NCBI RefSeq assembly: GCF_056746865.1
Contig: NZ_CM163382.1
DNA: 64,000 nt
Reading direction: 5' to 3' (one strand)
Shown here: positions 1,875-45,424 of the stretch, piece by piece
Numbering within the stretch: position 1 is the first letter of the stretch
How the letters are laid out: every line of letters starts with the position of its first letter
Notes under the pieces: generated by a model
What the model saw: only the letters and a program-made list of their open reading frames with translations
The model's database searches: none
What the model was told of the DNA's origin: nothing
Position numbers and translations under genes: made by a program

Positions 1875-1887
1875 CACCTTCTTATTC
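1875..1887. other. Prophage attachment site core, int-proximal (attL); 13-bp CACCTTCTTATTC
   Basis: Exact 13-bp direct repeat of 44579..44591; lies between the potC start and the integrase gene. Confidence 0.6.
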
Positions 1888-2032
1888 ATAAGGCGGGACA
1901 CTTTCAGGATTTTGAATTTATTCAATTTTTCCCTTTCTCCAAAATCTCTCCAAAACGTTTCCCCAAAACTAGGCCACGCATTTTACAACACTTTTTTCCT
2001 GAGATGGTGACGGATATTCCATATGGTGTTTG

Positions 2033-3151
2033 TCAAATAACCAACTTAACCCATTCCTGACCTCGAGTATCGTTATAGCGATCGGTGGTTGCCTGGACTT
2101 TATGTCCTAGTAATGTTTTTGTATCGATACCCTGTGCACGGTACAGCCGTTCTGATAGAGAGCGTTGTTCATGAAATGTTGGCGGAGTTTTTCCTGCTGG
2201 TGGAATTATCCCAGCCAGATCCCGTGCTTTGGCAAAGTAGTCGCTCAGGTTGTCTTTACTCATCGGCTTCGGTTGTTTCTGGTGCCGACTATGGATTAGA
2301 TATGGACTTAATATTCTGTCTCGGCACCCATCAATAACTTCTTTTAACGTTATCCCAATGGCATCACAGCGTAGTGTAAGCGGTAACGCCAGACGCATTC
2401 CGGTTTTTCCCTGGGTGATATGCAAGTGTTCGTTCCACACATCTGAAAAACGCATGTGGCAAATGTCATCACGGCGCTGACCAGTAACAATCGCAAGAAG
2501 CATTGCGTTACGGATAAAGTGTTTTTCAGGCGTTGCATTGTAAATTTTTTGCCAGTCTTCCATGGTGAGCCTGGCTCTGGTTACTTTAGGGATCGGTTTA
2601 CGGGTAGCCTCCGGAGGATTCCATCCAGGAGGAACTTCCCCTGCATGCTGTGCTTCTTTATAAATATCAACCCATAATCCACGATTTACTCTCGCTGTGC
2701 TGACCATGTCTTTATCCAGCCACTCATCCAGTATTAATGCAAAGTCTCTTACTTCCAGTTCTTTCAATGGGTGGTTTCCCAGACGGGAAACCAGGTATGC
2801 AGCCATTCGAGTTTTTTCTTTGTGAGTTGTAGCTGCAATATCTCCATTTTTCAGTCGCGTGTTCTGTATTTTCAGATATCGATCAACCCATGCCTTTAAT
2901 CTGATACCCCGACGTTTTGTTGCTGACGGACTTTCATCAATTTTGCGCATGAAATATTCAGCTTCTGCTGCAGCTATTCGCTGATTGGCTGTGGAAGCGA
3001 TTTTTTCTGCCTTACCTTTGTCTGTTCCGAGTCCGTGAAATTTTCCAGTCACAGGATTTTTATACTGGTAGTAAACTCTGCCAGTTCTGCGATCAAACTT
3101 TTCGTAAAGACCGGCTACGTCAGTGCTGTTTTTTCGTGGCCTCGGTGACAT
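2033..3151 (-). CDS. int: Phage tyrosine integrase (lambda Int family)
   Basis: 372 aa; C-terminal LLGHKVQATTDRYNDTRGQEWVKL resembles the lambda Int catalytic tail; adjacent to att core. Confidence 0.9.
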   Translation of the reverse strand: MSPRPRKNSTDVAGLYEKFDRRTGRVYYQYKNPVTGKFHGLGTDKGKAEKIASTANQRIAAAEAEYFMRKIDESPSATKRRGIRLKAWVDRYLKIQNTRLKNGDIAATTHKEKTRMAAYLVSRLGNHPLKELEVRDFALILDEWLDKDMVSTARVNRGLWVDIYKEAQHAGEVPPGWNPPEATRKPIPKVTRARLTMEDWQKIYNATPEKHFIRNAMLLAIVTGQRRDDICHMRFSDVWNEHLHITQGKTGMRLALPLTLRCDAIGITLKEVIDGCRDRILSPYLIHSRHQKQPKPMSKDNLSDYFAKARDLAGIIPPAGKTPPTFHEQRSLSERLYRAQGIDTKTLLGHKVQATTDRYNDTRGQEWVKLVI

Positions 3152-3389
3152 GAGTTAAAATCTCCTTCAGTGCATCATCATCGCCAGTATGAATTTCCGG
3201 CGCAATTCCCGTTTCACCAGGCCCAACAAATACTGCTCGGCGATCTATCAGCCAACGCCCACGAATTTTTTGTGGTCTTGGAACGATGTATCCTAGTTTT
3301 CCGTATTTCACCAGGGTAGTGTTTGTTATTGGGAGACTGAACCGTTTTGGTTTCCACTCGTCGAGCGTTATCAGGTACTGTTCGCTCAT
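3120..3389 (-). CDS. xis: Excisionase (Xis-like)
   Basis: Small basic ORF directly upstream of int and overlapping it; GGAG 8 nt before the ATG at 3389 (track ORF extends to a GTG at 3398). Confidence 0.65.
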   Translation of the reverse strand: MSEQYLITLDEWKPKRFSLPITNTTLVKYGKLGYIVPRPQKIRGRWLIDRRAVFVGPGETGIAPEIHTGDDDALKEILTHVTEATKKQH

Positions 3390-3450: not shown

Positions 3451-5889
3451 TTAAAAATCAGCCTGACTCGGGATCAGTTTTTGCCAGATAACTGAAACGT
3501 ATTTTGCCTGGTAACGGGCGTCATCAAGTGCATTATGGCGCTCACCTTCGAATGGAATAGCCGTTCTGGCATCGAAGTCTATGGCTTTCCCCAGCTCAAC
3601 GATTGTGCGTACATCTCGATCGTTGTAGTAACGCCACGGGCAGGGGATCCCCTGCCGTTCGTATGAACGGCGCAAAATCGTGTTGTCGAAGTTGGCTCCA
3701 TTTCCCCAGACCTGAACAAAAAATTCACCGGAGTTTTCGTCGATAAATTCCCGCAATTGTAACAGTGCATCATCTAACGGGATTTCATCGGTCATAATGG
3801 CAGATTGCGCTTCGCGTGATTGCTTAAGCCACCATTTAATGGTGTCCCGATCAATGACCCCGCCAGCAGTTTCCAGATCGATAGTCTTACTAAATTCCGG
3901 TCCCATATCTCCGGTTTGCGGATCGAAAAATATTGCACCTATTGAGATGATCGGGGCATCAGGATTTTTTCCCATGGTTTCAAGGTCGATCATTAGATGG
4001 TCACACGTCCTGCTGGTGGATGTGATAACGTGATGACCGTTCACCGTAATTAAGGGATCTGCCGTCTCGCCAGTTTCACTATCGCTGGCGTGATCCTGAG
4101 CGCTGCCAGCATTCTCCTTGTGTGGATGTTCAGCGCCTTCCATTTCCTTCGGATCATTTTCCTGAACTTCAACCTGATTCTCTTCATCGAATGTTTCCTG
4201 GTATGTTGCGTCGCCCATCACCGCGCCACAATCAGGGCAGTTGCCGCCGCCGGTCTGACCGCAGGCGGTGCAGATCTTTTCCGGTTCCTGTTGCACTACT
4301 GGTTCAGGTTGTTTCGTTTCTGGCTCGTTTTGTAACGCATTTGGGCTGTTTTGTTCCGCTTTCTGGTCGTTCTGTTCCGATTCTTGCTGGTTCTGGTTTA
4401 CAGAATCGCGGGTTTCAATCCCCTTTACCCATTTCGGATCATTCGGGTCGCTAATCCCTGCAACAAATTCTCCGCGAGAGGCAGCAAGCAACTTATCGGC
4501 GTCAGGCTGGCTGATATTGGCTGCCTGCATAATTTTGTTTACTTCGTCAGCGGTAACTTTTACCTGTGACTTGTCATCCAGCGGCTGCGGGTCCTGATGA
4601 TGTTCAACTGTATCCGCTGCCATTGTTTCAGCCGTTGCCTGTTCATCTGCCATTGCGCCAGATGGTTGCGGGTTATCTTCATCATTTTTTTCTTCTTCTG
4701 TTTTGCACTCAGCAGCCAGTCCGCCGTTAATTTCTTCCAGGATATCTTTTTCCGGTGTATGCCGGGCAGCCATGAGCGTTTCAGCTGTGGGATTCTCGTG
4801 ATCAGTTTCTGTCAGGTTGGCATTGATATACCCCTGAAGGCGCCCCGGGTAGTGATAAAACTCAGGGTGGGCGCTTCGGATAAGTGCAAAAATAGCTGCG
4901 CGGGAATAGTCCAGGATACCAGGGGTTGCGCGAAGTGCTGCGGACCATTCCCTGAACGGACTTTCTTTTTTCAGGACGATTTCTTTTGCGCGACGATAAA
5001 CGCTGCCCGGAATTTCATAAATATTAAAATCCATCGGAAGTGTGGCTGCTGCAATCTCCACATCCAGCGCATCGAAGGTGTGTACTAAATTCGGATTGCG
5101 ATCGGTTTTGTTCCCGCCACCGGCATTTGCACCGGAAGCCGTACGGGTGATACGCGAAACACGATTTCCTTTCATCCACTCTTTTGTCAGCAGACCCCGA
5201 TCAGTGTAATCAGCGTCCAGGTATGCCTCGAAAAAAGCAGTTATCAGTCCCAGGTCTGAATTACCGGGATTAGGGAAAACTTTGTCAGTGTCGCGTACCA
5301 GTTTGTGAAGGTCGCGAATCTCCAGCGGGTCGAGCAGCTTTGTTTTGTGAGAAATGGCCAGGGCAGTAACAGCCGGCAGTTCTTCCGCCCGTGCTATATG
5401 TAATGCCTGAAGTTCTTCCCGTGCAACGTGCGTTACTGGTTTTTCGCTGCTGTGTTGCGCAAGCCAGCGAATGGGCAGCTCCTGACCAGAAACCGGCAGG
5501 AGCATATTCTCCTCAATCTCCGTCATGTCTTCGCCGTTGACGTTGGTATTGTCAGTACTGGCTGGTTTCTCCTGCACGGAGGGAGAGGGCGCGATAAATA
5601 CCATTGTAATGCCATCTTCCCCGCCTTTTTCGTATCGGTTGCAGAATTCGGTATCAAACACGCCTTCAGGTGGAAGGTCATTCACAACGGGTAAATGGAC
5701 GCGAACGGGTTTTTTAAAGTCGTCTTCATCATAATCGTTGTCATCCATTGCGGTAATGCAGCGGGAGATGGCAACAGATAATTTTTTTGCTGTAGTCCAG
5801 TAAAAACCACCTTTAATTCCCAGACGTTTTCTGACTTTGTCATTTTTTGCTTCGCAATATAGCGCAAATTCTTCTTTATCAGTGCTCAT
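3451..5889 (-). CDS. Large prophage exonuclease-like protein (DEDDh-type 3'-5' exonuclease C-terminal domain, acidic linker, Cys4 zinc ribbon)
   Basis: 812 aa; C-terminal motifs [23 protein letters not shown] resemble DnaQ-like Exo I/II/III; CTACG...CPDCG zinc ribbon; position equivalent to recE/exo in lambdoid early-left operons. Confidence 0.6.
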
Positions 5890-5981: not shown

Positions 5982-6170
5982 TTATCCAGCCGGTGTTTCG
6001 TTATTCAGGTACAGCGATACTTTTTTTACCGGGAGGCATTCACCAGAAATTTTTTGCTCGTCTCTTGCCTGGAGGCAGGATTCTTTACTGGCATAAATTC
6101 CGGTAATCACATTCTGTGATTCACCCGTTATAAGAAAAACCGTCATCATCAGTGCAAATGCTGAAGTCAT
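5982..6170 (-). CDS. ydfD: YdfD-like small protein
   Basis: 62-aa ORF immediately downstream of dicB-like gene, as in the Qin dicB operon; N-terminal hydrophobic stretch. Confidence 0.45.
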   Translation of the reverse strand: MTSAFALMMTVFLITGESQNVITGIYASKESCLQARDEQKISGECLPVKKVSLYLNNETPAG

Positions 6171-6355
6171 TGACGCTCTCCGAAAATACCAAGTTCAAGA
6201 AGAGCAATTCGGGAAAGTATGGAATTATCATTGAGCAGATAAGGCTCATATTTCCTCATATTAATGGCATCTTCAGTAAACTCCCGGTTACTGAGCAGAA
6301 CACCAATATCAAAACAACCTTCAGACGTATTAACGTTTGGTAATAACGTTTCCAT
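6167..6355 (-). CDS. dicB: DicB-like cell-division inhibitor
   Basis: 62 aa, METLLPNVNTSEGCFDIGV...FTEDAIN closely matches the DicB N-terminus as recalled; sits downstream of a DicF-like sRNA. Confidence 0.75.
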   Translation of the reverse strand: METLLPNVNTSEGCFDIGVLLSNREFTEDAINMRKYEPYLLNDNSILSRIALLELGIFGERQ

Positions 6356-6532
6356 TATCGCGTCCTCAACAATGAATTTTGTGATGCAGTGCCTGGTGCC
6401 TCCAGGTGACGTTAACCAGTTAACAATTAACGCCGGGTTAGTTGATGCTCGTTACGCCAGTAAAAGACCGCCTTACTGCTTTAACTGTTCCGCGTGCGCA
6501 TAGCCGCATTCACCGCATCACAAAATTCACTT

Positions 6533-6590
6533 TAAAAAGGGCGGCAGAGCAGTCACGGAGTAAAACTGATACCGCCAAACGTCACCAGAA
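6533..6590 (-). ncRNA. dicF: DicF small RNA (ftsZ-targeting sRNA) with intrinsic terminator
   Basis: Minus-strand sequence TTTCTGGTGACGTTTGGCGGTATCAGTTTTACTCCGTGACTGCTCTGCCGCCCTTTTT matches DicF as recalled; GC hairpin plus T-run; conserved position upstream of dicB. Confidence 0.75.
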
Positions 6591-6895
6591 AATTGATAAC
6601 AGAGGGCGTTGCAGCGGGGTTGTCACTTAAGCGTATGGTCAACCTGACAACCCGGTGTCCTCAACGGGGAAGGAATAACCCCGTCATACTTACCGCCGCG
6701 CCATTTCGCGGAGTGTCACAACCGGAAGCGCACGGTCGACGAAAATTTAACGACAGGCTATCTATGAACCAGCTACCTCGCCGTGCGCTTTCGCGTTATG
6801 GTCTGACTTTTCATGGAAATATCCTTTCAGTAAACTGTCAGTGCCGGATTCTTATCCGTGTCCGGCGCACGCACTCTACCTCACCTGTGAATAAA

Positions 6896-7270
6896 TTAAT
6901 GATTAATTGATATTTTGTTGTTTGATTCAACTTTCCCATCGGATGTGTGATGCTTTAAATCACAGGAATTAATACTGCTTGCTGTAAAATGATTTTCAAG
7001 GGGAGCTATTCGAATCCCTTTCTTTTTCATTAACAAGCCAAATCCTTTATTAATGATGTCCATTAATTCCAGAAAGTATTTTTCATGTAAATCCTGGTTA
7101 TCAGAGAGCTGCTTCTCTTCGTACAGCCCGATAAAGGCTCGGCGTACGTTACCGGATATATTGTCGATGGTTTCTTTTTCTACGGTACTCAGGTCAAGAG
7201 TCGCCAGTTGAGAGCGAACCACATTCGCTGCCATTTCCTGGAATGGCATTGGTAAATCTTTAAATTCCAT
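6896..7270 (-). CDS. Hypothetical protein, 124 aa
   Basis: ORF in the early-left operon between ydfC-like gene and dicF; no recognisable motif. Confidence 0.4.
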   Translation of the reverse strand: MEFKDLPMPFQEMAANVVRSQLATLDLSTVEKETIDNISGNVRRAFIGLYEEKQLSDNQDLHEKYFLELMDIINKGFGLLMKKKGIRIAPLENHFTASSINSCDLKHHTSDGKVESNNKISINH

Positions 7271-7292
7271 TATTAGCCTCGTTGGTTAGCTA

Positions 7293-7511
7293 TTAACGCG
7301 GGTATGTAATCATTCTGGCAATGCTTAATGCCGCTGCTTTTTCCAGCCTGGTGATATCCTGCTCCAGAGCGGACAGATTTTCAGCCTGCTTAGCCCTGGC
7401 TTCATTGGCCCATTTCAGGTCCTGCGCAGCCTTAATTTTCTGGTGTATCCACTCATAAAGTTCATCATCGGTATAGTCTGGCGCGATGATGACGGGTTCT
7501 CGTTTCTGCAT
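7293..7511 (-). CDS. ydfC: YdfC-like protein
   Basis: 72 aa; operon position after ydfA/ydfB homologues as in Qin. Confidence 0.5.
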   Translation of the reverse strand: MQKREPVIIAPDYTDDELYEWIHQKIKAAQDLKWANEARAKQAENLSALEQDITRLEKAAALSIARMITYPR

Positions 7512-7540
7512 ACTGATTCCTCGCGGTGCTGTTTCGCTTA

Positions 7541-7669
7541 TCAGCCGTTAGATTTTGCCGAACTGGAAAGCGCCTGTTTAAACTCACTGAAGCTGAGGGC
7601 TTCTTCGCCTTCGGCAAGGCCTTCGAAGTATTCTTCGTAAGCCTTTTCCATGATTGTGTTGAAATCCAT
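7541..7669 (-). CDS. ydfB: YdfB-like small protein (42 aa)
   Basis: Minus-strand ORF MDFNTIMEKAYEEYFEGLAEGEEALSFSEFKQALSSSAKSNG found by manual translation; below the 60-aa track cutoff. Confidence 0.5.
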   Translation of the reverse strand: MDFNTIMEKAYEEYFEGLAEGEEALSFSEFKQALSSSAKSNG

Positions 7670-7670
7670 A

Positions 7671-7826
7671 TCACTCACCTGAGTTTCTTTCCAGCCAGCG
7701 ACGGGCACCATTTTCGGTTTTAAACGTTTTGCTTTTGGTATACGTCATCGCGGTGAACGTACCGTCCTGGTTGGGGAACACGCCACATACCAGAGATTCG
7801 CTGTTGCCAAGATCGATAGTATCCAT
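7671..7826 (-). CDS. ydfA: YdfA-like small protein (51 aa)
   Basis: Internal Met of track ORF 7671..7907 (MDTIDLGNSESLV...); GAGG RBS upstream; first gene of the leftward early operon. Confidence 0.5.
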   Translation of the reverse strand: MDTIDLGNSESLVCGVFPNQDGTFTAMTYTKSKTFKTENGARRWLERNSGE

Positions 7827-8070
7827 GCTGACCTCATTTCCCCTTAACGCCGGGGTAGCGGAACAAAAACCTGCTGCATAGTTATTAAAGTTGAACCCTG
7901 CCGTCATGTTCTTACGCCTCGGGCTGGCTACTTAACCCCTGACCACTGCCGGGTAACTCGAAGTATTTCCCTGCGTTCTGTGGGGCGGGGTGGGTTGGTA
8001 TGTTGTTAATGTAACAAGAGTTACCTTTCGAGTCAATACAATGTTGCAAAAGGTACATTTGAGGGCATAA

Positions 8071-8098: not shown

Positions 8099-8872
8099 TC
8101 AGTCTAAGTATTGATGTATTTGTGAAACTTTACCTTTAATGGTGTAACCACCATTCAGTTCGATGGGTTTGTAAAGCGGATTCAGTGACAACAAATAGAT
8201 GTTTGGTCCGTCAATCGCAACTTTTTTTAGTGTTACGTTTGGCGTTCCTTCCAATTGGATTAAGATTATTTTTCCCACCAGTTCTCTAATGTTACTTGAG
8301 CATGGTGTGATCAGCACGGTAGATCCGTCGGGGATGGTTGGGAGGCCGTTAGAGTTTGTCATCGCATCTCCCTCAACATGCAATAAAAAAGAGTTTTCAG
8401 CGGTTTTTGTCATGACATCAACCCAGTTATTAATACCAGGAATCTTGGTTACTGGACAACTCATATCCCAATAACCAGCCTGTTCCCACGTTAAAACGGG
8501 CAACCGGGCGATGTTGTCACTAATGTAAGGGTACTGATTCAGACGCAGATCATCGGTTTTATCGTGACAGTCCTTTCCATAAAGAATCCATTCAGGAGAT
8601 TTGGAAAGCAATTTTGACAGTAGATACAAATTCTCACCGTCAGGTTTTGAAGAGCCATTTTCCCATTTTGTTACGGATACACGAGATATGCCGATTGCTT
8701 TCGCAACCTGCTGTTGGGTTAATCCAACGTCTTTTCGACGATTCCGAATACGTTCGCTGATAGTGTTTTTCATGTAACCAATGTTACTACCAAGTGATGT
8801 TGCTATGGTTGACATTGTTATGTAACTATTGTTACCCTTCTGCTCGAAATAACAGGAGAGTTTTATGTTCAA
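8099..8872 (-). CDS. cI: CI-like phage repressor (XRE HTH plus S24 LexA-like peptidase domain)
   Basis: HTH region GLTQQQVAKAIGISRVSVTKWENG; C-terminal S24-like region; divergent from cro-like gene; likely true start at ATG 8815 (MSTIATSLG). Confidence 0.85.
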   Translation of the reverse strand: MNIKLSCYFEQKGNNSYITMSTIATSLGSNIGYMKNTISERIRNRRKDVGLTQQQVAKAIGISRVSVTKWENGSSKPDGENLYLLSKLLSKSPEWILYGKDCHDKTDDLRLNQYPYISDNIARLPVLTWEQAGYWDMSCPVTKIPGINNWVDVMTKTAENSFLLHVEGDAMTNSNGLPTIPDGSTVLITPCSSNIRELVGKIILIQLEGTPNVTLKKVAIDGPNIYLLSLNPLYKPIELNGGYTIKGKVSQIHQYLD

Positions 8873-14897: not shown

Positions 14898-15155
14898 ATA
14901 CAGCGAACGCCATTGGTTTAGTTGGATATTTACTGTGCCGGACAAAAACGGTTTGCGGGGAAATCTTAGTTAAGTAGAATGACTGCGGGTGCTTGAGGCT
15001 ATCTGTCTCAGGCATGAACACCAAAAGGCAGATAGAGAAAAGCCCCAGTTAACATTACGCGTCCTGCAAGACGCTTAACATTAATCTGAGGCCATATCTA
15101 TGCGACACATAGAGATTAGCCTCTTACGGACCGAAAGGTCAAGGAGAAGCAGGCT

Positions 15156-15311
15156 ATGAAGCAGCAAAAGGCGATGTTAATCGCCCTGATCGTCATCTGT
15201 TTAACCGTCATAGTGACGGCACTGGTAACGAGGAAAGACCTCTGCGAGGTACGAATCCGAACCGGCCAGACGGAGGTCGCTGTCTTCACAGCTTACGAAC
15301 CTGAGGAGTAA
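15156..15311 (+). CDS. hok: Hok/Gef-family type I toxin
   Basis: 51 aa MKQQKAMLIALIVICLTVIVTALVTRKDLCEVRIRTGQTEVAVFTAYEPEE, Hok-like TM helix plus CE(I/V)R motif; AAGGAG RBS; short overlapping upstream leader ORF (mok-like). Confidence 0.85.
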   Translation: MKQQKAMLIALIVICLTVIVTALVTRKDLCEVRIRTGQTEVAVFTAYEPEE

Positions 15312-19524: not shown

Positions 19525-19879
19525 GGGCAAATCCAGGTGGTTGTTGCTTTCCCGTTGCTGAAAAAGAAAACGCCAGACTGTTAGCCGGGTATCAGTTATC
19601 TGGAGAAATTTTTAAATACCTCACAATTCAGGCGGTTGACTGTTGTCTGGTTTGCGGGGAGTTTGTTAAAAGAAACTGGCATGGTGAATCCCCCTGTGCG
19701 GAGGGGCAATCAGCAACTGGTGTTTTGTCACCGACCCTTATCCTTTCTGTGCGGGTTCAGGTGCTGATACTGAACTCACCGGGAGGCACCCGGCATCATG
19801 CAATGGCACATAGCGCCACTCTCCAGCCCCTCTCCGGAGGGGCTGTTTATATTGATTTTGTCAGATGTGAGTAAACTCC

Positions 19880-33495: not shown

Positions 33496-34416
33496 ATGGG
33501 ATTGTTTACGACCCGCCAGTTACTCGGTTATACCGAACAAAAAGTGAAATTCCGTGCGCTGTTTCTGGAGCTGTTTTTCCGCCGTACGGTGAATTTCCAC
33601 ACCGAAGAGGTGATGCTGGACAAAATTACCGGAAAAACGCCGGTGGCGGCCTATGTCTCCCCAATCGTTGAAGGAAAAGTGCTTCGCCATCGCGGTGGTG
33701 AAACCCGCGTGTTACGTCCGGGCTACGTCAAGCCCAAACACGAATTTAGCACGCCGGAGGGGGAGCGGTATATCCCTTGTGTGAATATTTCCGCGGAGCC
33801 GGAGGCGTATTTTCGTATCGCACCGGAAGACTGGCTGCGGGCAGAGATGCAGGGGGAGATTGTGGCACTGGTCCACAGTCATCCCGGTGGGCTGCCCTGG
33901 CTGAGCGAGGCTGACCGGCGGCTGCAGATAAAAAGCGCACTGCCCTGGTGGCTGGTCTGCCGGGGTGACATTCACAAATTCCGCTGTGTGCCACATCTGA
34001 CGGGACGGCGCTTTGAGCACGGGGTGACGGACTGTTACACGCTGTTCCGGGATGCTTATCATCTGGCGGGGACTGAAATGCCGGATTTTCATCGCGAGGA
34101 TGACTGGTGGCGCAACGGCCAGAACCTGTACCTGGACAACCTGGCGGAAAACGGCTTTTGCCGGGTGTCTCCGTCCTCTGCACAGGCAGGCGATGTGCTG
34201 CTGTGCTGCTTTGGATCATCGGTGCCGAATCATGCCGCCGTTTACTGTGGTGACGGCGAGCTGCTGCACCATATTCCTGAACAACTGAGTAAACGGGAGA
34301 GGTATTCCGAAAAATGGCAACGACGAACGCATTCAGTCTGGCGTCACCGCCACTGGCACGCATCCGCCTTTACGGGGATTTACAACGATTTGGCCGCCGC
34401 CTCAGCCTGTATGTGA
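33496..34416 (+). pseudogene. In-frame chimera: N-terminal ~84 aa of major capsid protein E fused to C-terminal ~220 aa of tail protein K
   Basis: Residues 1-84 align with lambda gpE N-terminus (QLL...FRRTVNF...YVSPIV...PGYVKPKHE); remainder aligns with lambda gpK (STPEGERY.PCVNIS.EPEAYFR, HSHPGG JAMM motif); junction near 33745. Confidence 0.8.
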
Positions 34417-42698: not shown

Positions 42699-43282
42699 TG
42701 GCATTCAGAATGAGTGAACAACCACGGACCATAAAAATTTATAATCTGTTGTCCGGAACTAATGAATTTATTGGTGAAGGTGATGCATATATTCCGCCTC
42801 ATACAGGTCTGCCAGCAAACAGTACCGATATTGCACCGCCAGATATTCCGGCTGGCTTCGTGGCTGTTTTCAATAGTGATGAGTCATCGTGGCATCTCGT
42901 TGAAGACCATCGGGGTAAAACGGTTTATGACGTAGCGTCAGGGGACGAGTTATTTATTTCTGAACTCGGTCCGTTACCGGAAAATGTTACCTGGTTATCG
43001 CCGGAAGGGGAGTTTCAGAAGTGGAACGGCACAGCCTGGGTGAAGGATACGGAAGCAGAAAAACTGTTCCGGATCCGGGAGGCGGAAGAAACAAAAAACA
43101 ACCTGATGCAGGTAGCCAGTGAGCATATTGCGCCGCTTCAGGATGCTGCAGATCTGGAAATTGCAACGGAGGAAGAAACCTCATTGCTGGAAGCCTGGAA
43201 AAAGTATCGGGTGTTGCTGAACCGTGTTGATACATCAACTGCACCTGATATTGAGTGGCCTACGAACCCTGTCAGGGAGTAA
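42698..43282 (+). CDS. tfa: Tail fibre assembly protein Tfa
   Basis: 194 aa, [18 protein letters not shown]... as lambda Tfa. Confidence 0.9.
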
Positions 43283-44560: not shown

Positions 44561-45424
44561 TTAATCATCTAATTCGCTCACCTTCTTATTCAGCAAACGA
44601 GAAGCGCGCCAGTAAACCAGCAACATCAGGCCCATTACGATAGTCAGCGTAATGCTGGTGGCTGCACCAAACGGCCAGTCACGAATATTGAGGAACTGTA
44701 CTTTGATGACGTTACCGATCAGCAGGTTTTTCGCACCGCCCATCAGGTCGGACACATAGAACAGGCCCATCGCTGGCAGCATCACCAACAGGCATCCGGC
44801 AATAATCCCCGGCATCGTCAGTGGGATAATGATACGGATAAAGGTCTGCAACTTGCTGGCACCGAGATCGCGCGCCGCCTCCAGCAACGGCTTATCCAGT
44901 TTTTCGATACTCGAGTACAGCGGCATCACCATAAACGGCAGCAGAATGTAAACCAGACCGATAATCACCGCACTGGGTGTGAACATGATGCGAATTGGTG
45001 TATCGATAACGCCCAGCCAGAGCAAAAACTCGTTGAGATAGCCTTTGGTGCTGAGGAAAATTTTCAGCCCGTAGATACGAATCAATGAGTTGGTCCAGAA
45101 CGGAACAATCAGCAGAAACAGCAGCAGCGGACGCACCTTGTGTGGCAGCTTCGCCAGAAACCAGGCAAAAGGATAGCCCAGCACCAGGCAGGCGAGGGTG
45201 GCGATCAGCGCCATATTCAGCGAGTGCAATAGCACTTCAAAATAGAGCGGATCGAGCAGACGCGTGTAGTTATCCAGCGTAAAGACCATTTTGACGAAAC
45301 TGGCGTCGTCGCGGGTCAAAAAGCTGGTGCCAATGATCATCAGGTTGGGCAGAAAGACAAACAACACAAGCCAACCGACAATAGTGACAATCACTACATT
45401 CTGGAACTTACTTGTGTTCTTCAT
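44561..45424 (-). CDS. potB: Spermidine/putrescine ABC transporter permease PotB (3' end supplied by prophage sequence)
   Basis: Polytopic membrane ORF overlapping potA stop; C-terminal codons lie on the phage side of the att core; start may be the downstream GTG (about 45394). Confidence 0.9.
44579..44591. other. Prophage attachment site core, distal (attR); 13-bp CACCTTCTTATTC
   Basis: Exact direct repeat of 1875..1887; lies within the 3' end of potB. Confidence 0.6.

What the first reader, a model, noticed from the sequence alone, without database searches (positions are those of the whole stretch)
5982..7907. Qin-type dicB/DicF division-inhibition module embedded in a lambda-like prophage
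The leftward early operon encodes ydfA-, ydfB-, ydfC-like ORFs, a DicF-like sRNA (6533..6590, minus strand, with terminator hairpin and T-run) and a DicB-like protein, followed by a ydfD-like ORF. An extra 124-aa gene (6896..7270) lies between the ydfC-like gene and dicF. The structural genes are lambda-like while this module resembles the Qin prophage, so the element is mosaic.
Basis: partly seen in the sequence, partly recalled or inferred. Interest (0 to 1): 0.45.

Follow-up and report, generated by a model that had tools for sequence, protein, structure and literature searches.

The report
Ordinary prophage dicBF cell-division-inhibition operon
This is a standard, already well-described prophage operon of E. 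coli (ydfA-ydfB-ydfC-DicF RNA-dicB-ydfD) that blocks host cell division when switched on; its only unusual item is one extra small gene of unknown function, which is itself common in E. coli.

Summary
Rfam finds DicF at 6590..6539 (-) with 76.7 bits against a threshold of 48. The 53-nt RNA (6591..6539) is identical to K-12 dicF. It sits in an intact ydfA-ydfB-ydfC-(124-aa gene)-DicF-dicB-ydfD-like operon that is followed by exonuclease VIII, xis and int.

The whole 2.2-kb module is 100% identical in many E. coli chromosomes. RefSeq annotates its genes there the same way. DicF plus its leader occurs in 3994 of 5426 complete E. coli genomes, with up to 7 copies, and in isolated lambdoid phages such as Tritos.

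The extra gene is real: dN/dS is 0.15-0.22. It is a 383-bp insertion at the ydfC/leader junction relative to Qin. It belongs to phrog_6937, has no known function, and is present in 895 of 5426 genomes.

The "mosaic" reading is true but trivial. Qin is itself a decayed lambdoid prophage, and this prophage also shares hokD/sok and ydfU with it. The immunity region differs from Qin: a cI-like repressor with an S24 domain replaces DicA.

Side observations:
- The repressor's catalytic Ser is replaced by Ala.
- A capsid-tail gene fusion marks an ~8-kb deletion.
- Relatives carry a shortened DicF variant.

Verdict: already known, low interest.

The parts
8099..8815 (-). cI-like prophage repressor. 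It has an N-terminal HTH related to DicA and P22 C2, and a C-terminal S24 (LexA-type) domain. The catalytic Ser is replaced by Ala151 (GDAMT). It is presumed to repress the leftward operon.
   Evidence: NCBIfam DicA-subfamily HTH 79 bits and LexA C-terminal domain. phrog_4 transcriptional repressor. Alignment to lambda cI 3bdn puts Ala at the position of Ser149, with the QAG site and the LKK lysine kept. RefSeq name: 'LexA family protein'.
8008..8036 (-). pL-like sigma-70 promoter candidate for the operon: TTGACT, 17-nt spacer, TG-extended TACATT. It overlaps an operator palindrome.
   Evidence: Consensus scan. This is a consensus match only. Its function is inferred.
8011..8024 (.). Candidate operator GTAAC-N4-GTTAC. 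The two other perfect copies lie at 8774-8787 and 8822-8835, in the repressor/cro divergent region.
   Evidence: Repeats. All three perfect copies in the 64-kb window lie in the immunity region. Allowing one mismatch there are 5 matches against about 1 expected, and 0 of 100 shuffles reach 5.
7671..7826 (-). ydfA-like gene (DUF1391, 51 aa)
   Evidence: 49/51 identical to K-12 YdfA. phrog_751. RefSeq annotation.
7541..7669 (-). ydfB (42 aa)
   Evidence: 41/42 identical to K-12 YdfB. RefSeq annotation.
7293..7511 (-). ydfC (72 aa)
   Evidence: 68/72 identical to K-12 YdfC. phrog_1744.
6896..7270 (-). Extra 124-aa gene (phrog_6937; RefSeq WP_000394528.1, 'hypothetical protein'). Soluble, helical, mildly acidic. 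It has a conserved N-terminal domain of about 55 aa and a variable C-terminus. Function unknown.
   Evidence: Insertion relative to K-12. phrog_6937 full length; the N-terminus is shared with phrog_1363, 2151 and 9419. No Pfam, NCBIfam, PADLOC or PDB match. dN/dS 0.15-0.22. Alignment of variants. AlphaFold model with three helices, pLDDT about 80 for residues 1-50 and below 50 from residue 85. Present in 895 of 5426 genomes.
6592..6889 (-). Conserved untranslated leader of DicF, the substrate for RNase III and RNase E processing in K-12
   Evidence: Near-invariant against K-12 and phage Tritos; mean column identity 97%. Structured, z = -2.97. Processing is described in bioRxiv 10.1101/2023.04.14.536235.
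6539..6591 (-). DicF sRNA (53 nt), followed by the T-run 6538..6534 of its intrinsic terminator
   Evidence: Rfam RF00039, 76.7 bits. 53/53 identical to K-12 dicF. Terminator stem-loop.
6167..6355 (-). dicB variant (62 aa)
   Evidence: NF049927 DicB, 114.2 bits against a cut-off of 100. 39/62 identical to K-12 DicB, with the C-terminal half diverged. RefSeq WP_000449175.1.
5982..6170 (-). ydfD-like gene (DUF1482, 62 aa, hydrophobic N-terminus). It overlaps the dicB stop by 4 nt.
   Evidence: phrog_1092, E 7e-34. 28/63 identical to K-12 YdfD. Hydrophobic maximum at residue 1.
3451..5889 (-). Exonuclease VIII (RecE-like) gene. It continues the same leftward transcription unit towards xis (3389..3120) and int (3151..2033).
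   Evidence: NF007259 exodeoxyribonuclease VIII, E 1e-272, 907 bits; this is below the curated cut-off of 1269. RefSeq annotation.

Best explanation
The region is the immunity-proximal early-left (pL-type) operon of a lambdoid prophage. The prophage is inserted between potC and potB. The operon is an ordinary copy of the dicBF operon first described in the Qin prophage of E. coli K-12.

**Repression (inferred).** In the lysogen, a cI-like repressor (8815..8099) probably binds GTAAC-N4-GTTAC operators that overlap a promoter at about 8036..8008. This would keep the operon off.

**Transcription and RNA processing (inferred by identity with K-12).** When repression is lost, one leftward transcript covers ydfA, ydfB, ydfC, the extra 124-aa gene, a roughly 300-nt structured leader and dicF. 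RNase III and RNase E cut the leader to release the 5' end of DicF. The DicF stem-loop and U-run terminate part of the transcripts. Read-through continues into dicB, the ydfD-like gene, exonuclease VIII, xis and int.

**Effects on the host (from K-12 work, not tested here).**
- DicF is identical to the K-12 RNA. It pairs, with Hfq, with ftsZ, xylR, pykA and other mRNAs, and so lowers FtsZ synthesis.
- DicB binds MinC and sends it to midcell, which blocks Z-ring formation. Through the same interaction it inhibits ManYZ and excludes lambda-like phages.
- The ydfD-like protein is a small membrane-anchored relative of the K-12 YdfD lysis protein.

**The extra gene.** It is a conserved accessory gene of unknown function. 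It occupies the slot after ydfC (or ydfA) in a minority of these operons.

What is shown: sequence identity, gene order and family membership. What is inferred: transcription, processing, repression and the phenotypes.
For: - DicF: Rfam 76.7 bits, 53/53 identity and a near-invariant leader, terminator fold.
- Gene order and identity to the K-12 dicBF operon.
- DicB HMM score above the curated cut-off.
- An identical locus is annotated ydfB, ydfC and dicB in RefSeq genomes.
- The same arrangement, with an annotated DicF, occurs in phage Tritos.
- All ORFs have GAGG-type ribosome-binding sites.
- Operator palindromes are confined to the immunity region, and there is a promoter-like site.
- Mechanistic knowledge comes from PMC5069750, bioRxiv 10.1101/2023.04.14.536235 and bioRxiv 10.1101/708461.
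- Prophage context: int, xis and exo to the left, cro/DicC-like, ydaT and replication genes to the right, lambda-like late genes, and a 14-bp direct repeat at the potC and potB junctions.
Against: - There are no expression data, so the promoter, the operators and the processing are inferred.
- DicB is only 63% identical to the characterised K-12 protein, and the differences are concentrated in the C-terminal half. The ydfD-like protein is 44% identical. Their activities may differ quantitatively or qualitatively.
- The repressor is not DicA, and its S24 active-site Ser is Ala. The trigger for derepression is therefore unknown. No Rem-type antirepressor was found.
- The function of the extra gene is unknown.
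Confidence: 0.9

Rival explanations
1. The module is a silent relic. The prophage is defective and permanently repressed, so the operon is never expressed at a meaningful level. It persists only because it is young or because it hitch-hikes.
For: - The prophage carries a capsid-tail gene fusion, which implies a deletion of about 8 kb of head and tail genes.
- It carries an IS2.
- Its repressor lacks the catalytic Ser.
- No antirepressor or LexA box was found.
Against: - Every ORF of the operon is intact and has a ribosome-binding site.
- DicF and its leader are near-invariant across loci.
- The extra gene shows dN/dS of 0.15-0.22.
- The module is kept in 74% of complete E. coli genomes, often in several copies.
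- In K-12, the equally cryptic Qin copy is expressed in stationary phase and in a subpopulation of cells.
Confidence: 0.07
2. The extra 124-aa gene is a functional part of the division-inhibition or exclusion module. It might modulate or counteract DicB or DicF toxicity, or it might be a further host-takeover or superinfection-exclusion factor. Its conserved N-terminal domain would dock on a common partner. Its variable C-terminus would set the specificity.
For: - It is co-oriented and tightly packed within the operon.
- It is under purifying selection.
- Family members occupy the same slot in operons with different immunity regions.
- N-terminal-domain relatives occur in the early-left region of Stx2a phages.
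- The N-terminus is conserved and the C-terminus is variable.
Against: - There is no homology to any characterised protein, defence model or solved structure.
- Most dicF loci lack it: 895 genomes have it against 3994 with dicF. The module therefore works without it.
- Some loci have the gene but carry only a shortened dicF variant.
Confidence: 0.12
3. The 124-aa ORF is a chance open reading frame in a non-coding insertion.
For: No family annotation exists outside PHROGs. The C-terminal 40 residues are predicted to be disordered.
Against: - dN/dS is 0.15-0.22 in three pairwise comparisons.
- There are 226 homologues, mostly full length at 65-98% identity, without frame disruption.
- A GAGG ribosome-binding site lies 7 nt upstream of the start.
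- The N-terminal helices are predicted with confidence.
Confidence: 0.02

Closest known systems
dicBF operon (ydfABC-dicF-dicB-ydfDE) of the cryptic prophage Qin, E. coli K-12
   Same: - Same gene order and strand logic.
- DicF is 53/53 identical, and the roughly 300-nt leader is near-invariant.
- YdfA, YdfB and YdfC are 94-98% identical.
- DicB is a family member.
- An exonuclease gene, of which ydfE is the remnant in K-12, lies downstream and is followed by int.
   Different: - A 383-bp insertion carries a 124-aa gene between ydfC and the leader.
- DicB is 63% identical and the YdfD-like protein 44% identical.
- The repressor is a 238-aa cI/LexA-type protein with an S24 domain, not the 135-aa DicA. 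There is no Rem antirepressor.
- The integration site is different (potB/potC).
- Late genes are largely retained.
dicF/dicB-bearing early-left regions of isolated lambdoid phages (e.g. Escherichia phage Tritos, OV696610.1) and the multiple dicF copies in EHEC O157:H7 prophages
   Same: - The order is repressor, ydfA, ydfB, ydfC, DicF, dicB, ydfD, exonuclease VIII, xis.
- DicF copies in several prophage contexts are already documented (PMC5069750; PMC7873438).
   Different: - Tritos and the other phage records lack the full 124-aa gene. No phage record covers 80% or more of it.
- Their repressors are of other immunity types. The best phage match to this repressor is 43% identical.
Bacteriophage lambda pL operon host-division inhibitor Kil
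   Same: It is an early-left, repressor-controlled phage function that blocks FtsZ ring assembly on induction. The similarity is one of position and logic only (general knowledge; PMC3961180 appears in the results).
   Different: The sequences are unrelated and the mechanisms differ. Kil acts on FtsZ through ZipA. This module uses an antisense sRNA against ftsZ mRNA plus a MinC activator.

Membership tests
DicF RNA (Rfam RF00039) | Covariance-model score at or above the curated gathering threshold | tested here: met
   76.7 bits against 48. The full model, positions 1-52, is matched.
DicF RNA (Rfam RF00039) | Sequence identity with the experimentally characterised K-12 DicF, including the 5' and 3' pairing regions | tested here: met
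   53/53 identical.
DicF RNA (Rfam RF00039) | 3' Rho-independent terminator (stem-loop followed by a U-run) | tested here: met
   The MFE structure pairs nt 16-52 and is followed by UUUUU. The fold's z-score alone is unremarkable (-1.09).
DicF RNA (Rfam RF00039) | [quoted passage not shown] | not testable with these tools
   Only the conserved leader and the K-12 literature support this.
DicB cell-division inhibition protein (NCBIfam NF049927) | HMM score above the curated cut-off over the full length of about 62 aa | tested here: met
   114.2 bits against 100. Residues 1-62 match profile positions 1-62.
DicB cell-division inhibition protein (NCBIfam NF049927) | MinC-dependent block of Z-ring formation and inhibition of ManYZ | not testable with these tools
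   The protein is 39/62 identical to the characterised protein, and the C-terminal half is diverged.
YdfD / DUF1482 lysis protein | Sequence family membership and position immediately after dicB | tested here: met
   phrog_1092, E 7e-34. RefSeq annotates the identical gene as DUF1482. It overlaps the dicB stop.
YdfD / DUF1482 lysis protein | Lysis activity | not testable with these tools
   28/63 identity to K-12 YdfD. The hydrophobic N-terminus is retained.
Qin prophage itself (as opposed to a Qin-type module) | DicA/DicC immunity with the Rem antirepressor, and the Qin chromosomal site | tested here: not met
   The repressor is a 238-aa S24-domain protein. Its HTH scores 79 bits on the DicA model, below the cut-off of 101. 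There is no Rem homologue. The prophage lies between potC and potB.
Lambdoid (lambda-like) prophage | Lambda-type order of late genes: terminase small and large subunits, portal, protease, capsid, tail, J, lom, stf, tfa | tested here: met
   PHROG assignments. However, the capsid gene is fused to a minor-tail gene, so the set is incomplete.

The most novel reading that the evidence does not exclude
Two readings are not excluded.

(a) The 124-aa protein is an uncharacterised effector of lambdoid early-left operons. The family has a conserved N-terminal domain of about 55 aa and swappable C-termini. The protein might modulate DicB or DicF toxicity, or it might act on the host or on competing phages.

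(b) This immunity type uses a naturally non-cleavable cI-like repressor (Ser to Ala in the S24 active site). It is common in E. coli genomes, but no close relative exists among about 50,000 sequenced phages. This would uncouple the dicBF operon from the SOS response, so that the operon serves the host as a permanently domesticated, differently triggered division and exclusion switch.
Probability: 0.12. Interest if true: 0.4.

Novelty: already known. Interest (0 to 1): 0.1.

Why it matters
It matters little as a discovery. The dicBF operon, its sRNA, its spread over many prophages and its presence in several copies per genome are all in the literature. The locus is already annotated in RefSeq.

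The check is useful mainly as a clean positive control.

Three small leads remain:
- an uncharacterised but common accessory gene inside the operon;
- a repressor class whose autocleavage serine is missing;
- a truncated DicF variant in related loci, which keeps the 5' seed but lacks part of the 3' portion.

Tried and rejected
**The 124-aa protein**
- Pfam gave only a meaningless VLPT hit at E 0.04.
- NCBIfam and PADLOC gave nothing.
- The PDB sequence search gave nothing significant.
- An AlphaFold model (pLDDT 61, three helices) was searched with Foldseek against PDB and BFVD. No hit reached E <= 0.001. The best viral hit is just an N-terminal-domain homologue from phage phi191.
- Two homology searches returned only Escherichia or Salmonella 'hypothetical proteins'.
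- A literature search for the RefSeq accessions found nothing.

**Derepression route**
- No Rem homologue by tblastn.
- There are only two LexA-box-like matches in 64 kb. Neither is near the immunity region, and the count is at chance level.

**Possible extra RNA**
- A sub-threshold STnc100 match lies in the dicF-dicB spacer (30.5 bits against a gathering score of 47).
- Direct alignment to the true STnc100 copy shows that only two short motifs are shared. I treat it as not a member.

**Promoter for the extra gene**
- The promoter-like hit at 7296..7269 overlaps the gene's own start codon. I rejected it as a promoter for the extra gene.
Full report

Yes. An Rfam scan of the whole 64-kb window gives four matches above the gathering threshold. 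One is DicF (RF00039) at 6590..6539 on the minus strand: 76.7 bits against a threshold of 48, E 3.6e-15, with the full model matched.

I aligned the region with the K-12 Qin locus (NC_000913.3, dicF = b1574) and with phage Tritos. All 53 nt of K-12 DicF are identical in the window, at 6591..6539. The roughly 300 nt upstream and the 40 nt downstream are almost invariant. The RNA folds into the expected 3' stem-loop followed by UUUUU.

They correspond exactly to RefSeq-annotated genes in strain EC31, whose sequence is 100% identical over the 2.2 kb queried.

| Gene | Window coordinates | Identity to K-12 protein |
|---|---|---|
| DUF1391 / ydfA | 7826..7671 | 49/51 |
| ydfB | 7669..7541 | 41/42 |
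| ydfC | 7511..7293 | 68/72 |
| hypothetical, 124 aa | 7270..6896 | absent from K-12 |
| dicB | 6355..6167 | 39/62 |
| DUF1482 (ydfD-like) | 6170..5982 | 28/63 |

The DicB variant passes the curated NCBIfam DicB model at 114.2 bits against a cut-off of 100.

There is one small correction. The annotated start is 7826, which has a good GAGG ribosome-binding site, and homology to K-12 begins only at 7864.

**2. What the locus is**

Against K-12 Qin, window 7864..7273 aligns at 96% (ydfABC). Window 6889..6251 aligns at 91% (leader, dicF and the first half of dicB). Between these blocks, 383 bp of the window (6890..7272) replace about 22 bp of K-12, so the 124-aa gene is an insertion at the junction of ydfC and the leader.

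Downstream lie an exonuclease VIII gene (5889..3451), xis and int, and then potC and potD. Upstream lie a cI-like repressor on the same strand, then a divergent cro/DicC-like gene, ydaT and replication genes.

The prophage lies between potC and potB. A 14-bp direct repeat (CACCTTCTTATTCA) sits at 1875-1888 and 44579-44592. Its late genes are lambda-like: terminase small and large subunits, portal, protease, J, lom, stf and tfa. The region is therefore the early-left, pL-type operon of a lambdoid prophage.

**3. How it most likely works**

*Shown.* Sequence identity, gene order and family membership.

*Inferred from the sequence.*
- A sigma-70-like promoter lies at 8036..8008: TTGACT, a 17-nt spacer and a TG-extended TACATT. 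It overlaps a perfect palindrome, GTAAC-N4-GTTAC, at 8011-8024.
- The only other perfect copies in 64 kb are at 8774-8787 and 8822-8835, between the repressor and cro genes.
- This is the classic oL/oR layout, so the repressor most likely keeps the operon off.

*Inferred from K-12 work* (PMC5069750; bioRxiv 10.1101/2023.04.14.536235; bioRxiv 10.1101/708461).
- A single transcript starts upstream of ydfA.
- RNase III and RNase E cut the leader to give the 190-nt and 53-nt DicF species.
- The DicF hairpin terminates part of the transcripts, and read-through reaches dicB.
- DicF, with Hfq, represses ftsZ, xylR and pykA.
- DicB binds MinC, blocks Z-ring formation and inhibits ManYZ. This excludes lambda-like phages.

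DicF and its leader are the same sequence as in K-12, and the leader is predicted to be strongly structured (z = -2.97). I therefore expect the same processing here.

The diverged C-terminal half of DicB and the 44% identical YdfD-like protein are the least certain parts.

**4. The extra gene**

It is a real gene.
- dN/dS is 0.15-0.22 in three pairwise comparisons.
- It has a GAGG ribosome-binding site.
- There are 226 homologues, nearly all from Escherichia, and most are full length.

It matches phrog_6937 over its whole length. Its first 55-60 residues also match phrog_1363, 2151 and 9419. Alignment shows an invariant N-terminal domain (MEFKDLP...LYEEK) joined to several unrelated C-termini in variants of 109, 124 and 133 aa.

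The protein is soluble and mildly acidic. The predicted structure has two confident helices, a third helix and a disordered tail. Nothing informative came from Pfam, NCBIfam, PADLOC, the PDB or fold searches.

It is not rare. It occurs in 895 of 5426 complete E. coli genomes, and 671 of them hold 80% or more of it.

Family members sit in the same slot next to different immunity regions:
- O157:H7 strain Z563;
- strain OkiPb01692, where it directly follows ydfA;
- strain VG12A2;
- PPompW prophages, as a 135-aa variant.

A distant N-terminal-domain relative lies in the early-left region of Stx2a phages. No record in the collection of 50,697 phages holds the full 124-aa form.

My best guess is an accessory early-left "moron" protein that acts on a host or phage partner. 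Confidence in any specific function is low.

**5. Comparison with what is known**

The dicBF operon and DicF are textbook items. [quoted passage not shown]

I found DicF plus 50 nt of leader in 3994 of 5426 complete E. coli genomes. There are 7157 places and up to 7 per genome. It also occurs in isolated phages, and Tritos carries it annotated.

The prophage also shares hokD/sok (98%) and ydfU (83%) with Qin.

This is not Qin itself. The site, the repressor type and the lack of Rem all differ.

**6. Things seen on the way**

(a) *Repressor active site.* The repressor aligns with lambda cI along its whole length. The Ala-Gly cleavage site and the catalytic Lys are kept, but the catalytic Ser is Ala (GDAMT, Ala151, codon GCG at 8365..8363).
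- The same Ala is present in relatives of 97%, 88% and 68% identity.
- Relatives of 86% and 65% identity, and all more distant ones, have Ser.
- EC31 carries a structurally complete copy of this prophage and has the identical repressor.
- The best phage-collection match to the repressor is only 43% identical.
- This suggests an immunity type that cannot be induced by the SOS response. I did not test it further.

(b) *Defective prophage.* ORF 33496..34416 fuses the first 91 residues of the major capsid protein to the C-terminal part of a minor tail protein. The EC31 relative has the full set of genes between them. This copy has therefore lost about 8 kb and is defective. It also carries an IS2.

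(c) *Shortened DicF in relatives.* In related loci (O157 Z563, OkiPb01692) the DicF position holds a shortened RNA gene, TTTCTGGTGATTCGGCGGAAACGGATATCCGCCCTTTTT. It keeps the 5' end and has a new short terminator, but it lacks 17 or more nt of the 3' portion. Rfam does not detect it.

(d) *Weak STnc100 similarity.* The dicF-dicB spacer gives a sub-threshold STnc100 match. A true STnc100 copy lies at 19650-19854. Only two short motifs are shared, including a hairpin CCNGG-AGGCA-CCNGG with compensatory changes.

**7. Verdict**

The feature is already known and annotated, so the interest is low. The residual leads (the accessory gene, the Ser-to-Ala repressor and the short DicF variant) are minor. 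Two of them lie outside the finding or in other genomes.

Noticed in passing
window 8099..8815 (-), codon 8365..8363: The cI-like repressor has Ala in place of the S24 catalytic Ser (GDAMT). The Ala-Gly cleavage site and the catalytic Lys are retained. The same substitution occurs in relatives of 97%, 88% and 68% identity, while relatives of 86% and 65% identity and all more distant ones have Ser. No close relative (above 43% identity) exists in the phage collection. It may be a naturally non-SOS-inducible immunity type.
   Followed up: partly
window 33496..34416 (+): This ORF fuses the N-terminal 91 aa of the lambda-type major capsid protein to the C-terminal part of a minor tail protein. Relative to the otherwise similar EC31 prophage, about 8 kb of head and tail genes are deleted, so this prophage copy is defective.
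   Followed up: partly
L004:3180-3220 and L005 (aligned columns 585-640 of alignment A4): In related dicB loci of O157:H7 Z563 and OkiPb01692, the DicF position holds a shortened variant, TTTCTGGTGATTCGGCGGAAACGGATATCCGCCCTTTTT. It keeps the 5' end but lacks 17 or more nt of the 3' portion. Rfam's DicF model does not detect it.
   Followed up: partly
window 6323..6541 (-) and 19650..19854 (+): A full STnc100 (RF02076) copy at 133.5 bits lies at 19650-19854, next to an IS2 and upstream of the nanS-like esterase gene. The dicF-dicB spacer gives a sub-threshold match to the same family (30.5 bits, gathering score 47). The two share GGTGAAT and a hairpin CCNGG-AGGCA-CCNGG with compensatory changes.
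   Followed up: partly
window 1875..1888 and 44579..44592: A 14-bp direct repeat, CACCTTCTTATTCA, lies at the potC-proximal and potB-proximal ends of the prophage. It is a candidate att core. The prophage spans about 42.7 kb between potC and potB.
   Followed up: partly
window 14987..15158 (+) and 43041..43239 (+): There are Rfam matches to the sok antitoxin RNA (106.7 bits, next to a hokD gene 98% identical to the Qin copy) and to IS009 (225.2 bits, at the 3' end of the tail-fibre assembly gene).
   Followed up: no
window 8011..8024, 8774..8787, 8822..8835: Three perfect copies of the palindrome GTAAC-N4-GTTAC are confined to the immunity region. One overlaps the -10 of the leftward promoter candidate. 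A weaker fourth copy lies at about 8043..8056. These are candidate operators.
   Followed up: partly
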